DNA of 64,000 nt from Nanobdellota archaeon (GTDB lineage: Archaea > Nanobdellota > Nanobdellia > Pacearchaeales > GW2011-AR1): NCBI GenBank assembly GCA_030648155.1, contig JAUSIK010000002.1, forward strand, positions 17,205 through 81,204. Direction: 5' to 3'. Positions within the stretch are counted from its first letter, which is position 1. Every line of letters starts with the position of its first letter. The notes beneath the pieces are model-generated. The model was not told the DNA's origin, searched no databases, and saw only the letters and a list, made by a program, of their open reading frames with translations. The translations under genes and the position numbers were made by a program. Below are positions 38,479 through 44,893 of the stretch, one piece after another.

Positions 38479-40050
38479 ATGGCACAAAATAAATACTCTA
38501 GAAGACAAATACTAAAAGCAATACTAGGAGCTTCGCTCGCACAAGGATGTAACAATGGCAATCGAGCAGTAGTAGGGCCATTAGATTTTATTTCTTTACC
38601 GAAAGAAAATTTATTTTGGGAGGATTTAGAAGTTATTCATAACGATCTAGAAAACGATTTTTCATTTAATTTTACCACTATTAGCCAGAATGGTTTAAAA
38701 TTTAAAGGGTTGGTTAAAAGTGGAGAGGAATACCTCGCTCTTGAGGCTAAAGGCTTCCAGTTTGAAGTAGAATTAGATCAGAATGTAAAAAATTATACTA
38801 TAGAAGAATTAAAGTGGAGAAAAGATGGATTTTCATTAAGCTTGAGAGAGGGCGATAATCATTTTGTATCATGCTTTGATTCTGGTAAAGACCTGCATTT
38901 TTCTGGACTGGAACATACATTAAATTTAGCGACCAGAGAGAAAAAAATCAATGCCAATTATTACAATGGATCTATCCAAGAAGATGCTTATTTCAGGATT
39001 GATGCCTCTCTTGAAAAAGATGGGATAATTTTAAGAAAGGCTGATAAAACTAGAGTTTCTGACAGTTCTCCAGGAAATAATCTTTTAATTAAAGAGCCAT
39101 ATTTCCATTTTGTTCAATTAAGAAGCCCTACTTCATTTGAAATAGAAAATAAGATCAAAGAAAGAAATAAACCAATTCCGGAGGTAAAAGATTCAATTGG
39201 AATAGGTTTAGAAGAAAATTTTAGTTTTGAATTCTTCCCCTCTTTAGAAGCACGTCTAGAAAATCTTCCAGGACAGGGTTTGTTATTTTTACCAGATTTA
39301 ATCAATACTCAGTTTGAGCAAAACGGAGTAGAGTATCTAATCAGATACTTCGCCTTAGACACACGTAAAATTCCCTCTAATAATTCAGAAAGAATTTTTT
39401 ACCCTGCAAATACTGTTTTTACAGAATTAATTGAAGCTCCAAAACGAATTTTTCTTTCAGAAAATAATCCTCAATTATTCGATATTGAAGGAGCCAGATA
39501 TACTCTAACTTTAAAAGGTGAAGAAGAAAGTCCGAATGATTTTCCAGGGAAGAGTTTTATATTAGAAGTAAGAAAAGGAGATTCAATCCAAGAGGTTAGG
39601 ATAAAACCTCTCACATACGCATATCCGAACCGAGTTTTCGATATAAATATTGATCCTGACCTTCAGCCTTATTTTACAGATTCAAAATCGCTCCTGCAAT
39701 CTTTCTTTATATCAAAAAATAAATTTTCTTCAGCCCCAGATTTTGGAGATGATCATCAATTTTCCGGATTAAAAAAAGTTTTGGTGCCTAATTATGATCC
39801 TACCTCACATAATAAAAAAATATCTTATGAGCAAGTCACTTTAGCAAACAGGTTTAACGGGGAAGTCCAAGATTCATTTTTTAGATGTGATATTGACATA
39901 GGCATTGATTCCTATAGAAAGGTAAGGTCTGATGAAGAAAATGATAGTTACAAAATTATTTCATCAAAAGGATTTAGTCCAGCAGACCAAATTGAGAATG
40001 GATATAAAGTGAAGATAAAATCCTTGCAAAAAATAATCAGCGAGCATTAG
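38479..40050 (+). CDS. Secreted lipoprotein with twin-arginine signal, unknown function
   Basis: MAQNKYSRRQILKAILGASLAQGC has a Tat motif SRRxxLK plus a lipobox-like LAQGC. An internal duplication is visible (HFSGLEHTLNL...NGSIQEDAYFRIDA vs QFSGLKKVLVP...NGEVQDSFFRCDI). Confidence 0.7.
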   Translation: MAQNKYSRRQILKAILGASLAQGCNNGNRAVVGPLDFISLPKENLFWEDLEVIHNDLENDFSFNFTTISQNGLKFKGLVKSGEEYLALEAKGFQFEVELDQNVKNYTIEELKWRKDGFSLSLREGDNHFVSCFDSGKDLHFSGLEHTLNLATREKKINANYYNGSIQEDAYFRIDASLEKDGIILRKADKTRVSDSSPGNNLLIKEPYFHFVQLRSPTSFEIENKIKERNKPIPEVKDSIGIGLEENFSFEFFPSLEARLENLPGQGLLFLPDLINTQFEQNGVEYLIRYFALDTRKIPSNNSERIFYPANTVFTELIEAPKRIFLSENNPQLFDIEGARYTLTLKGEEESPNDFPGKSFILEVRKGDSIQEVRIKPLTYAYPNRVFDINIDPDLQPYFTDSKSLLQSFFISKNKFSSAPDFGDDHQFSGLKKVLVPNYDPTSHNKKISYEQVTLANRFNGEVQDSFFRCDIDIGIDSYRKVRSDEENDSYKIISSKGFSPADQIENGYKVKIKSLQKIISEH

Positions 40051-40080
40051 ATATATAAAGGACTTTTGCTCTTTTCCCCT

Positions 40081-43332: not shown

Positions 43333-43333
43333 A

Positions 43334-44893
43334 ATGAAGAAATCACTACTTTTAACTGCAATTCTGATAATTGTAAGTTTATTGGGAATTTTATCAATTA
43401 AACCTATACTAACCGGTAAAGTAACACAAGAAGAATGTAATTTTTTAAGAGGCGATTCTAATTCGGATTCTTCTCTAAATCTAGCTGACCCTATGTATAT
43501 ATTGAACTTTTTATTTAAGGGAGGAAATAGCCCAATATGTGAAGACTCAGCAGATTCTAATGATGATGGCCGAATTGATATTACTGATGCGGTGTTTATA
43601 TTACAATACTTATTTTCAGGAGGCGGGTCTCCACCACTGCCATTTCCATCAAATGGAATAGATCCTACAAGTGATTCTTTAAGTTGCGGTACTTCAAATG
43701 CTTGTAGTTATAAAAAAGTAAATCTTTGTCCCTCTTTAGGTATTCAAGATAGCGAGGAGTGTTTAATCCAAGTATTTGCACAATCAAAAATAATTGAAAA
43801 AGAAATAGACAGTGACTTATCAGCCTGTGCAATTATAAAAAGTGGAAAGAATTTTATTGGTTGCGACCCATACGAATCAGCAAATAGTAAAGAACATGTA
43901 TTGGTAAGGTCTTTTGCTGAACAGCGCAATCCTTCATTTTATAATTCAGATCAAGGGTTATTGGTAACCTGGGAAGAATTCGAAAAAAATCAAGTTCAAG
44001 AAGAAAAAATTAAAATATATCTTTGTAGAATGAATGGATTTATTGCGGACCCCTACAATTATTGTGAGCTGAACAAAAAACTTATCGCATATGGTTCTCA
44101 TCCATCTGTGTCTAGATACTTGGTGTGGAAAGATGAAAATTCAATTAGGGCTTGTGACCCTTTCCTAGAAGAAGGGAAATATTCTTGCACTTTTGAAAGC
44201 GAAAAAATGTTAATTACTGAAGAAATTAATTCAGAGGGCGAATATATAACTCCTTTAATCAAAGAAAATAACCTTCTTTATAGAAAAAAGGTAATGGGAT
44301 TAGAAAAAAGCGTTTACTATTTGTACGCATGCATTATAGGCCAAGACAATTTTATTTGTCCTTCAAAATCAATAGCAGAAGGGCAGATAGATCTTTCTCA
44401 AGCAGGCGATATTAAAGATGGTAGAATAGTTTATGCCTCTAAAAATAATAACCAAAAATACGACATTGTCTTTTTGGAAAATCCAGATAAAAAGATTATA
44501 ATTGCTGAAGAACAGGAATTAGTTTCCTCTCCGCAATTAGTCTCATTGTACAATAATGAATTAAAGCAGATGCAATATTATGTCGTATGGAAACAATCTA
44601 ATTCTGGCAATAAATATAATATTCAAGTCAAACTTGCTGATGGAAATTTAAATACGCACTATAAGGTGATTACACCAGGATACACCGGCGCAAATGGTCC
44701 ATCTGTCTTTGATCAGAGAGATTTTACTTTTATTCAAGATAAGATACTTGGAAAATTTGAGGGTTCTTTTGATGAATCTAGTGATCAAAATTTCTTAAAC
44801 AAATGGTTTACTTGTAACTTGAAATCTTTAGAGAACCCTTCACAAGAAGAATTAGATTCTGGACTGATAGGCGGTTGTTTACAAAGAGTCTAG
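43334..44893 (+). CDS. Secreted/anchored protein with tandem dockerin-like (EF-hand-type) repeats
   Basis: ATG 43334 lies 1 nt after the upstream stop. An N-terminal hydrophobic helix is followed by RGDSNSDSSLNLADPMYILNFLFKGGNSPIC and SADSNDDGRIDITDAVFILQYLFSGGGSPP (~43448-43650). This is the paired DxNxDGxxDxxDxxxxLxxLFxGG pattern. Confidence 0.7.
   Translation: MKKSLLLTAILIIVSLLGILSIKPILTGKVTQEECNFLRGDSNSDSSLNLADPMYILNFLFKGGNSPICEDSADSNDDGRIDITDAVFILQYLFSGGGSPPLPFPSNGIDPTSDSLSCGTSNACSYKKVNLCPSLGIQDSEECLIQVFAQSKIIEKEIDSDLSACAIIKSGKNFIGCDPYESANSKEHVLVRSFAEQRNPSFYNSDQGLLVTWEEFEKNQVQEEKIKIYLCRMNGFIADPYNYCELNKKLIAYGSHPSVSRYLVWKDENSIRACDPFLEEGKYSCTFESEKMLITEEINSEGEYITPLIKENNLLYRKKVMGLEKSVYYLYACIIGQDNFICPSKSIAEGQIDLSQAGDIKDGRIVYASKNNNQKYDIVFLENPDKKIIIAEEQELVSSPQLVSLYNNELKQMQYYVVWKQSNSGNKYNIQVKLADGNLNTHYKVITPGYTGANGPSVFDQRDFTFIQDKILGKFEGSFDESSDQNFLNKWFTCNLKSLENPSQEELDSGLIGGCLQRV

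What the first reader, a model, noticed from the sequence alone, without database searches (positions are those of the whole stretch)
38479..44893. Three-gene secreted operon: Tat-lipoprotein, 1,083-aa M64-like zincin giant, and dockerin-like protein
Seen: the genes are tightly packed (30-nt and 1-nt gaps).
- The first has SRRQILK plus LAQGC (a Tat signal with a lipobox).
- The second has a Sec-type signal and HELGHSMAFLGDEYSY.
- The third has an N-terminal anchor and paired dockerin-like Ca-binding repeats.

All three are large and otherwise unassignable.

Inference: a surface-displayed proteolytic or adhesive complex in which the dockerin-like module may tether partners. Together with 2-4348 and 45772-48316, this devotes about a quarter of the window to surface machinery, consistent with an episymbiotic lifestyle.
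Basis: partly seen in the sequence, partly recalled or inferred. Interest (0 to 1): 0.6.

Follow-up and report, generated by a model that had tools for sequence, protein, structure and literature searches.

The report
Archaeal protease–lipid-carrier surface gene cluster
A tiny symbiotic archaeon that cannot make its own membrane lipids carries a rare, conserved three-gene cluster. Its central secreted protein joins a zinc protease to a predicted BPI/CETP-like lipid-carrying module, which makes it a testable candidate tool for working on a host's envelope and lipids.

Summary
The three genes, their spacing and all quoted motifs are real.

**Conserved cluster.** All three belong to tiny families, each with about 7-10 clusters in billions of proteins. 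These families occur only next to each other:
- C sits beside B in 11 of 11 loci.
- A sits upstream of B in 8 of 10 loci.

**New result.** The "unassignable" 800 residues of B fold, in an AlphaFold model (pLDDT about 70-88 there), into a BPI/LBP/CETP-type double TULIP lipid-binding module. Foldseek E is 3e-15 and TM is 0.55.

**Other parts.**
- The N-domain of B is a divergent M64 zincin.
- C carries a true type I dockerin.
- A is a two-lobed all-beta protein with a conserved twin-arginine signal and lipobox.

**Context.** The key archaeal lipid-synthesis enzyme (GGGP synthase) is absent from the genome and from 40 relatives.

**Best reading (0.45).** This is a surface protease and lipid-handling complex aimed at a host envelope.

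**Open problems.**
- The assembly has no TatA, TatC or cohesin.
- Lipid binding is untested.
- The family is rare.
- Promoter boxes suggest two transcription units (A alone, then B with C) rather than one operon.

The parts
38448..38455 (+). TATA-like box (TATATAAA), 23 nt before the ATG of A
   Evidence: The same TATATAAAYA box stands at the same distance upstream of A in all 7 loci examined (W, L027, L030, L013, L009, L031, L032).
38479..40050 (+). Gene A: 523-aa two-lobed all-beta protein with a twin-arginine signal and lipobox
   Evidence: model pLDDT 74, pTM 0.75; no PDB fold match; internal duplication.
38497..38517 (+). Twin-arginine motif SRRQILK (aa 7-13)
   Evidence: Conserved in orthologs. 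Pfam TAT_signal hits 3 of 8 family members.
38536..38550 (+). Lipobox LAQGC (aa 20-24). Cys24 would be the lipidated first residue.
   Evidence: fits a PROSITE-like lipobox pattern. The Cys is conserved in 7 of 8 aligned homologs.
38584..39123 (+). A, N-lobe (aa about 36-215)
   Evidence: the C-lobe HMM hits the N-lobes of 8 of 8 members (E 4.5e-14 to 2.9e-6). hhalign gives 97%.
39196..40047 (+). A, C-lobe (aa about 240-523)
40052..40059 (+). TATA-like box (TATATAAA), 21 nt before the ATG of B
   Evidence: TATA-like boxes lie at 21-32 nt before B in the other loci.
40081..43332 (+). Gene B: 1083-aa secreted M64-like zincin fused to a predicted double TULIP module
40081..40152 (+). Sec-type signal peptide of B (aa 1-24; VNA|EE; invariant Cys27 follows)
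   Evidence: An N-terminal hydrophobic segment is conserved in the homologs.
40153..40920 (+). Divergent peptidase M64-like zincin domain (aa about 25-280)
   Evidence: Pfam M64 scores 15.5 bits for this copy, below the cut-off of 26. It hits 8 of 9 family members, best E 1.2e-5. The best PDB hits are 3p1v and 4df9. The profile hits about 640 proteins over positions 20-270. Those tested are true Pfam M64 members at 44-67 bits.
40570..40611 (+). Zinc-binding and catalytic motif HELGHSMAFLGDEY (aa 164-177)
   Evidence: H164, E165, H168, D175 and E176 are invariant. (aligned to HEFGHSFGGLADEY of 3p1v).
40933..42525 (+). Predicted BPI/LBP/CETP-like double TULIP lipid-binding module (aa about 285-815). 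Boundaries are taken from the secondary structure of the model.
   Evidence: pLDDT mostly 70-88, beta strands of 17-22 residues wrapped round helices of 21-24 residues. BPI 1ewf E 3.1e-15 with TM 0.55, CETP 2obd 7.9e-14, LBP 4m4d 1.5e-13, followed by the rest of the TULIP superfamily.
42598..43329 (+). C-terminal alpha/beta domain of B (aa about 840-1083), unassigned
   Evidence: Conserved in the distant relative P0040.
43318..43323 (+). Shine-Dalgarno-like GAGGGG, 10 nt before the ATG of C and inside the end of B
   Evidence: GGAGG-like sequences precede C in L031 and L009. B and C overlap by 4 nt in L009 and L013.
43334..44893 (+). Gene C: 519-aa protein with an N-terminal hydrophobic segment, a type I dockerin and a Cys-rich domain of about 400 aa with unknown fold
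43451..43612 (+). Type I dockerin with two Ca-binding loops, DSNSDSSLNLAD and DSNDDGRIDITD
   Evidence: 28.2 bits against a cut-off of 22.9; 8 of 8 members. (3ul4_B, E 2.9e-6).
43691..44890 (+). C-specific domain (aa about 120-519), found only in genes next to B-family genes
   Evidence: The A3 HMM hits the 744-aa neighbour of P0040 at E 2.2e-54.

Best explanation
**What it is.** This is a conserved cluster of exported proteins in a lipid-auxotrophic, DPANN-type archaeon.

- B is secreted through Sec. It joins a probably active M64-type zinc metallopeptidase to a BPI/CETP-like double TULIP tube that can hold lipid tails, plus a further C-terminal domain.
- C is its obligate partner and is translationally coupled to it. 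C is held at a surface by its dockerin and by an N-terminal hydrophobic segment.
- A is a two-lobed beta protein tethered to the archaeon's own membrane by a lipobox cysteine.

**Proposed mechanism.**
1. The complex sits on the symbiont surface.
2. The zincin cuts host or own surface protein, giving access to a membrane.
3. The TULIP module extracts, shuttles or bridges lipids.
4. A or C acts as adaptor or acceptor, by analogy with TipB of Bdellovibrio.

**Shown.**
- The genes, motifs and conserved linkage.
- M64 homology.
- The dockerin.
- The TULIP fold prediction.
- Absence of GGGP synthase and CarS.

**Inferred.**
- Lipid binding.
- Direction of any transfer.
- The protease substrate.
- Physical association of the three proteins.
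For: **TULIP fold.**
- Foldseek of the B model ranks five BPI/CETP/LBP structures first (E 3e-15 to 3e-12, probability 1.00, TM 0.46-0.57 per target).
- Double TULIPs P47 and OrfX2 follow, then the single TULIPs: Takeout, JHBP, PLUNC, Der f 7 and SMP.
- Model confidence in that region is mostly 70-88.

**M64 domain.** Supported. The catalytic residues are invariant.

**Linkage.**
- A C-family gene lies next to B in 11 of 11 loci. This includes a very distant relative at GC 49%.
- A lies upstream of B in 8 of 10 loci.
- The A and C families are not found away from B.

**The TULIP part may be the core.** The distant relative P0040 has lost HExxH but keeps the TULIP-C and C-terminal part and the C partner.

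**Lipid auxotrophy.**
- GGGP synthase is absent from the genome and from all 40 relatives searched, spanning 30 genera.
- CarS is absent from the genome.
- All archaeal controls were positive.

**Precedent.**
- Bdellovibrio TipA, a secreted double TULIP, works with the operon partner TipB and is proposed to take prey lipids (bioRxiv 10.1101/2025.09.09.675085).
- How DPANN archaea take up host lipids is unknown (PMC11035636).

**Weak context.** One locus has patatin and PAP2 genes beside the cluster.
Against: - The TULIP call rests on one AlphaFold model built from 9 sequences. Overall pLDDT is 65 and pTM is 0.51. No sequence-level TULIP match exists in Pfam or PDB.
- No lipid-binding data exist.
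- The family is rare: about 10 clusters at E<=1e-30 among 1.8 billion representatives, and only 3 of 41 related genomes carry it. It cannot be the general DPANN lipid route.
- No TatA or TatC is in the assembly, so export of A is unexplained.
- No cohesin was found, so the dockerin receptor is unknown.
- Interaction between A, B and C is inferred from gene order only.
- BPI-like proteins also act as membrane-damaging agents, so the aim could be attack rather than uptake.
Confidence: 0.45

Rival explanations
1. It is an offensive effector. B is a membrane-permeabilising, BPI-like agent with a protease warhead, displayed or released to breach or kill host or competitor cells. Lipid uptake is not its purpose. 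A and C serve for display or immunity.
For: The fold evidence is the same as for the best explanation. BPI itself permeabilises membranes, and TipA destabilises bilayers (bioRxiv 10.1101/2025.09.09.675085). The genome encodes many other dockerin-tagged secreted hydrolases, including S8 and M6-like peptidases.
Against: No toxin-immunity pattern is evident. The relative P0040 dispenses with the protease motif. The lineage needs lipids.
Confidence: 0.2
2. It is a purely proteolytic or adhesive surface complex. The region after the zincin is only a beta-rich stalk or binding module, and its TULIP resemblance has no lipid function or is a modelling artefact.
For: The M64 motif is invariant. A paralog fuses M64 directly to a dockerin. 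The model comes from a shallow alignment with pTM 0.51. There is no sequence match to TULIP families.
Against: The graded Foldseek hits run across the whole TULIP superfamily with probability near 1. P0040 keeps this part but loses HExxH.
Confidence: 0.2
3. It is a housekeeping envelope system. The TULIP module moves the archaeon's own lipids or lipid-linked glycans between the membrane and the S-layer or lipoproteins, and the zincin matures surface proteins.
For: A is itself a lipobox protein. A PMT_2 glycosyltransferase lies nearby at 35586-36974. Bacterial TULIPs such as YceB are envelope proteins (PMC5507252).
Against: A housekeeping role does not fit presence in only 3 of 41 relatives. 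The nearby glycosyltransferase is not conserved in the other loci.
Confidence: 0.1

Closest known systems
BPI / LBP / CETP (eukaryotic double TULIP proteins; PDB 1EWF, 1BP1, 4M4D, 2OBD)
   Same: Both are secreted. The predicted fold has two helix-sheet-helix tubes with a central sheet. These are the best Foldseek matches (E 3e-15, TM 0.55-0.57).
   Different: There is no detectable sequence similarity. Here the module is archaeal, is fused behind a zincin, is followed by an extra domain of about 240 aa, and is encoded with two dedicated partner genes.
TipA/TipB of Bdellovibrio bacteriovorus (bioRxiv 10.1101/2025.09.09.675085)
   Same: Both are prokaryotic secreted BPI-like double TULIPs in an organism that lives off another cell. 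Both are encoded next to a beta-rich partner. A role in taking lipids from the other cell is proposed for both.
   Different: TipA has no protease domain. TipB is a small C2-like sandwich, whereas C (519 aa, with a dockerin) and A (523 aa, a lipoprotein) are large and unrelated. The dimerisation hairpin was not examined. No sequence relation was found.
Peptidase family M64 (IgA peptidase of Clostridium ramosum; Bacteroides structures 3P1V and 4DF9; Pfam PF09471)
   Same: The HExxHxxxxLxDEY motif is shared. Profile homology runs over about 250 residues to proteins that pass the Pfam cut-off.
   Different: The window copy scores below the Pfam cut-off. It lacks the usual N-terminal beta domain and carries about 800 extra residues.
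orfX/p47 gene clusters of Clostridium botulinum (P47 6EKT, OrfX2)
   Same: TULIP-fold proteins are encoded together with a zinc metalloprotease. The structures are significant Foldseek hits.
   Different: There the TULIP proteins and the protease are separate polypeptides of unrelated families. The relation is fold-level only.
Cellulosomal type I dockerin-cohesin system, and non-cellulosomal archaeal dockerins
   Same: C has a duplicated Ca-binding F-hand module that passes the Pfam cut-off. At least 12 secreted proteins of this genome carry the module.
   Different: No cohesin was found in the genome. The dockerin is N-terminal, next to a hydrophobic segment. It carries a conserved PxPxPxxGxDxTxDxLxC extension.
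Haloarchaeal Tat-dependent lipoproteins (own knowledge: Gimenez et al. 2007; Storf et al. 2010)
   Same: Both have a twin-arginine motif followed by a lipobox cysteine.
   Different: TatA and TatC were not found in this assembly. TatC is present in only 2 of 41 relatives.

Membership tests
BPI/LBP/CETP-type double TULIP | Two tubular helix/twisted-sheet/helix domains joined by a central sheet | tested here: met
   This rests on a predicted structure only. Foldseek gives E 3.1e-15 to 2.6e-12 against 1ewf, 2obd, 1bp1 and 4m4d, with TM 0.46-0.57 per target. pLDDT is 70-88 in the region.
BPI/LBP/CETP-type double TULIP | Sequence match to Pfam LBP_BPI_CETP models | tested here: not met
   No such hit appeared at E<=1 in the Pfam scans of B or its 8 homologs.
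BPI/LBP/CETP-type double TULIP | Binds lipid in a hydrophobic lumen | not testable with these tools
   This needs purified protein.
Peptidase M64 | HExxH with the extended HExxHxxxxLxDEY motif | tested here: met
   HELGHSMAFLGDEY is present. H164, E165, H168, D175 and E176 are invariant in 9 homologs. The motif aligns to 3p1v.
Peptidase M64 | Score above the Pfam PF09471 gathering threshold | tested here: not met
   The window copy scores 15.5 bits against 26. However, 8 of 9 family members hit the model (best E 1.2e-5). The family profile also retrieves true M64 proteins at E about 1e-20.
Peptidase M64 | Metallopeptidase activity | not testable with these tools
   This needs an enzyme assay.
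Type I dockerin | Duplicated Ca-binding loop-helix module above the Pfam threshold | tested here: met
   28.1 bits against 22.9. Found in 8 of 8 orthologs. PDB dockerin hits down to E 2.9e-6.
Cohesin-dockerin system | A cognate cohesin encoded in the genome or the cluster | tested here: not met
   Pfam Cohesin gives 0 hits in the genome, with positive controls. The fold search of A shows no cohesin. C and most of the proteome were not fold-searched.
Tat-exported lipoprotein | S/T-R-R-x-F/I-L-K motif, a short h-region and a lipobox Cys | tested here: met
   SRRQILK...LAQGC. Conserved in orthologs. Pfam TAT_signal hits 3 of 8 members.
Tat-exported lipoprotein | TatA and TatC translocase present | tested here: not met
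   PF00902 and PF02416 are absent from the genome, which is 88.8% complete. tblastn with congeneric TatC finds nothing. TatC is present in 2 of 41 relatives.
TipA/TipB-like TULIP-adaptor pair | A double TULIP encoded with a partner that binds it | tested here: inconclusive
   C is adjacent to B in 11 of 11 loci. Binding was not tested, and C is unrelated to TipB in size.

The most novel reading that the evidence does not exclude
This cluster is the first identifiable piece of machinery by which a DPANN archaeon takes membrane lipids from its host. The zincin opens the host S-layer. The double TULIP tube, held in place by the dockerin protein C, extracts or bridges host lipids. The two-lobed lipoprotein A receives them at the symbiont membrane.
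Probability: 0.22. Interest if true: 0.85.

Novelty: new variant of a known kind. Interest (0 to 1): 0.64.

Why it matters
**The open question.** DPANN archaea lack lipid synthesis and must obtain lipids from their hosts. No protein for this has been identified (PMC11035636).

**What this offers.**
- A secreted BPI-like lipid-binding module in such an organism gives a concrete, expressible candidate.
- The module is fixed in a conserved cluster with a protease domain, a dockerin partner and a lipoprotein.
- It would extend extracellular double TULIPs to archaea. The papers I read (PMC5507252, PMC6791001, the TipA preprint) describe them only in eukaryotes and bacteria.
- It adds a zincin-TULIP fusion, an architecture I did not find described.

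**A second puzzle.** Conserved twin-arginine lipobox signals occur in genomes where no Tat translocase can be found.

**Limits.** The family is rare, and the fold call is a prediction.

Tried and rejected
- **Cohesin in A.** The A model (pLDDT 74) has no significant PDB fold match (best E 1.8e-3, TM<0.15) and no cohesin among the hits. The A profile has no PDB sequence match.
- **Cohesin in the genome.** The Pfam model finds none.
- **Shared domains among A, B and C.** hhalign finds none.
- **Tat machinery.** TatC and TatA are absent. A strict Tat-motif scan found only A. A relaxed scan found three more RR-lipobox ORFs, so the signal is not a one-off.
- **Scan of genome contigs with the B alignment.** No relatives were returned.
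- **Organism name.** It was not obtained. Handles are anonymous.
- **The look-up of sequencing runs.** It was closed, so expression, and the presence of tatC in the source reads, could not be checked.
- **Structure of C.** Pfam and PDB profiles give only the dockerin.
- **CYTH-like gene upstream (37898-38458).** I considered it as part of the unit and rejected it. It is not conserved in the other loci.
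Full report
**Observation**

The three co-directional ORFs are present as described.
- A: 38479-40050, 523 aa.
- B: 1083 aa from ATG 40081. A TTG at 40066 would add 5 residues.
- C: 519 aa from ATG 43334.
- With these starts, the gaps are 30 nt and 1 nt.

The window lies on contig 10 of a 1.25 Mb genome in 24 contigs, 88.8% complete. GC is about 32%. The window contains pilins with class III signals, and an earlier agent called the organism a DPANN archaeon. I did not obtain an organism name.

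**Protein A**

- A starts MAQNKYSRRQILKAILGASLAQGC.
- A strict Tat-motif scan of all ORFs in the genome returned A alone.
- A has only 6 homologs in a 5.8-billion-protein collection, plus those I read from loci.
- Almost all carry [S/T/P]RRxF/I/L-L and a lipobox Cys at 31-47% identity: SRRDFLK..GQGC, SRRKFLK..LNGC, TRRSLLK..SSC, SRRSFLK..NVGC, LRRNFLK..LVGC. The signal is therefore under selection.
- Pfam TAT_signal hits 3 of 8 members but not the window copy.
- An AlphaFold model (pLDDT 74, pTM 0.75) is all-beta.
- The C-lobe profile finds the N-lobe in 8 of 8 members (E 4.5e-14 to 2.9e-6; hhalign 97%), so A is an internal duplication.
- The model has no significant PDB fold match and no cohesin among its hits. 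The profile has no PDB sequence match.

**Protein B, N-terminal part**

- A Sec-type signal (VNA|EEC) is followed by a domain of about 255 residues containing HELGHSMAFLGDEY.
- H164, E165, H168, D175 and E176 are invariant in 9 homologs.
- Pfam M64 scores only 15.5 bits against a cut-off of 26 for this copy. It hits 8 of 9 members.
- The family profile's best PDB matches are the Bacteroides M64-type structures 3p1v and 4df9.
- An exhaustive profile search found 653 proteins. About 640 of them match only positions about 20-270.
- The seven such hits that I tested are bona fide Pfam M64 proteins at 44-67 bits.
- The N-domain is therefore a divergent M64 zincin that is probably active.
- The genome has one other M64-like gene (C9:163781-165439). 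That gene is fused directly to a dockerin.

**Protein B, remainder**

This is the new result.
- The AlphaFold model of B has overall pLDDT 65. The N-domain is poor, and residues 280-1040 are mostly 70-88.
- It shows beta strands of 17-22 residues wrapped round helices of 21-24 residues.
- Foldseek against the PDB ranks BPI first (1ewf, E 3.1e-15, TM 0.55; 1bp1, TM 0.57), with CETP (2obd, E 7.9e-14) and LBP (4m4d, E 1.5e-13) alongside.
- The bacterial double TULIPs P47 and OrfX2 follow, and then the single-TULIP proteins: Takeout, JHBP, PLUNC/BPIFA1, Der f 7, and the Mmm1/Mdm12 SMP domains.
- This graded sweep through one superfamily is what a real double TULIP should give.
- No sequence-level TULIP match exists, so the call is fold-level and rests on a prediction.

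**Protein C**

- It has an N-terminal hydrophobic segment. Whether this is a cleavable signal or an anchor is not resolved. Two orthologs have clear AxA-type sites.
- A type I dockerin follows, above the Pfam cut-off. It is present in 8 of 8 orthologs and matches PDB dockerins.
- A Cys-rich domain of about 400 residues with no match completes the protein.
- At least 12 ORFs of the genome carry the same dockerin. These include S8 and M6-like peptidases and a BNR-like protein.
- The Pfam Cohesin model finds nothing in the genome.

**Linkage**

B has 8 full-length homologs at 36-55% identity. A few more appear at HMM level, and only 10 proteins reach E<=1e-30 among 1.8 billion representatives.

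I examined 11 distinct loci: the window, L009/L010, L013/L014, L027, L030, L031, L032, L034, L016, L011/L012 and L033.
- A C-family gene is adjacent to B in all 11.
  - It usually lies downstream with a 1-4 nt gap or overlap.
  - It is once convergent.
  - It lies upstream in two loci.
- An A-family gene lies upstream of B in 8 of the 10 loci with context.
- The A and C domains were not found away from B.
- The most distant relative is P0040: 1673 aa, locus GC 49%.
  - It aligns to B 620-1087 at 99.7% hhalign probability.
  - It has no HExxH anywhere.
  - It still has a C-family gene immediately upstream (A3 HMM E 2.2e-54).
- The B-C pair is therefore the conserved core, and the protease is dispensable in at least one lineage.

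**Transcription (inferred)**

- A TATATAAAYA box lies about 22 nt upstream of A in all 7 loci compared.
- TATA-like boxes lie 21-32 nt upstream of B.
- C has a GGAGG-like sequence instead.
- This suggests near-leaderless transcripts for A and for B-C, rather than one operon.

**Context**

- GGGP synthase (PF01884) is absent from the genome and from all 40 relatives searched, spanning 30 genera.
- CarS (PF01864) is absent from the genome.
- All archaeal controls were positive. The lineage cannot make archaeal phospholipids.
- How DPANN archaea take lipids from hosts is unknown (PMC11035636).
- Bdellovibrio TipA is a secreted BPI-like double TULIP. It is opened by its operon partner TipB and is proposed to take prey lipids (bioRxiv 10.1101/2025.09.09.675085).
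- The TULIP reviews I read describe bacterial and eukaryotic members only (PMC5507252, PMC6791001).
- Unchecked earlier notes of this scan report other prokaryotic BPI-like proteins, some of them archaeal and cytosolic. I took this as a reason not to call the fold itself new.

**Interpretation**

- The best reading (0.45) is a surface complex combining protease and lipid handling, directed at a host envelope.
- The rivals are:
  - a membrane-damaging effector (0.2);
  - a purely proteolytic or adhesive complex in which the TULIP likeness has no function or is an artefact (0.2);
  - housekeeping envelope lipid traffic (0.1).

**Unexplained**

- TatC and TatA are absent from the assembly.
- TatC is real in two congeners, where it sits in an archaeal gene context.
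- Of the three related genomes with the cluster, only one has TatC.
- Yet the genome has at least three more RR-lipobox ORFs.
- Either tatAC lies in the missing part of the assembly (about 11%), or these signals are exported by another route.

Noticed in passing
own genome G000: C10:11166-11906 (-), C14:5727-6500 (-), C4:295208-295651 (-): Three further ORFs have a twin-arginine motif plus a lipobox Cys: MNRRDFQKAILTGGLITIFGC..HSRREFLWSLGKIASVGLTGISC and MRRTLKNLLAFGLIGTAAC. The first two are paralogs with Gly-rich linkers. They occur in an assembly with no TatA or TatC.
   Followed up: partly
window 38448-38478 and loci L009, L013, L027, L030, L031, L032 upstream of gene A: A near-identical promoter-like string, TATATAAAYA-N(10-12)-AATRRTAACT-ATG, is conserved at the DNA level upstream of A orthologs whose proteins are only 31-47% identical.
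   Followed up: partly
own genome, 12+ ORFs (e.g. C10:12597-15176, C4:71527-74169, C9:5-2743, C11:7845-10967): The dockerin in this genome carries a conserved extension, PxPxPxxGxDxTxDxLxC. It tags many secreted proteins, including an S8 peptidase, M6-like peptidases, a BNR-like protein and Cys-rich giants. No cohesin is detectable.
   Followed up: partly
own genome C9:163781-165439 (+): A 553-aa paralog fuses an M64 domain (27 bits, above the cut-off) directly to a dockerin and a Ser/Pro-rich tail. In the window cluster these two functions lie on separate proteins, B and C.
   Followed up: yes
L033:4029-11347 (Logan SRR6488538 contig, GC 49%): A distant B relative of 1673 aa has lost HExxH, making it a pseudo-zincin. 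It has a Ser/Thr-rich tail and a C-family dockerin gene upstream.
   Followed up: partly
L030:227-3047: In one related locus, patatin-like phospholipase and PAP2_C genes lie directly upstream of the A-B-C cluster. This is a single case.
   Followed up: no
window 37171-37754: A MazE-type antitoxin (38.9 bits) and a PemK/MazF-type toxin (46.7 bits) form an overlapping pair just upstream of the cluster. A MazE-like gene also lies at the edge of L030.
   Followed up: partly
window 37898-38458: A 186-aa ORF ends 20 nt before A. It has an EVEGK (ExExK, CYTH-like) N-terminus by eye but no Pfam hit at E<=1. It is not conserved next to the cluster elsewhere.
   Followed up: no
window 52710-54194: A 494-aa ORF has a Sec-type lipobox N-terminus (MRESLKLGLAAILAFSSSC) and no Pfam family.
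   Followed up: no
L028 (G007:C29) 6468-10226 versus window 44939-50308: In a congener, tatC lies about 1.5 kb from the threonyl-tRNA synthetase gene. In the window, the same side of that gene is occupied by the pilin-adhesin pair and this cluster. The region may be a variable island.
   Followed up: partly
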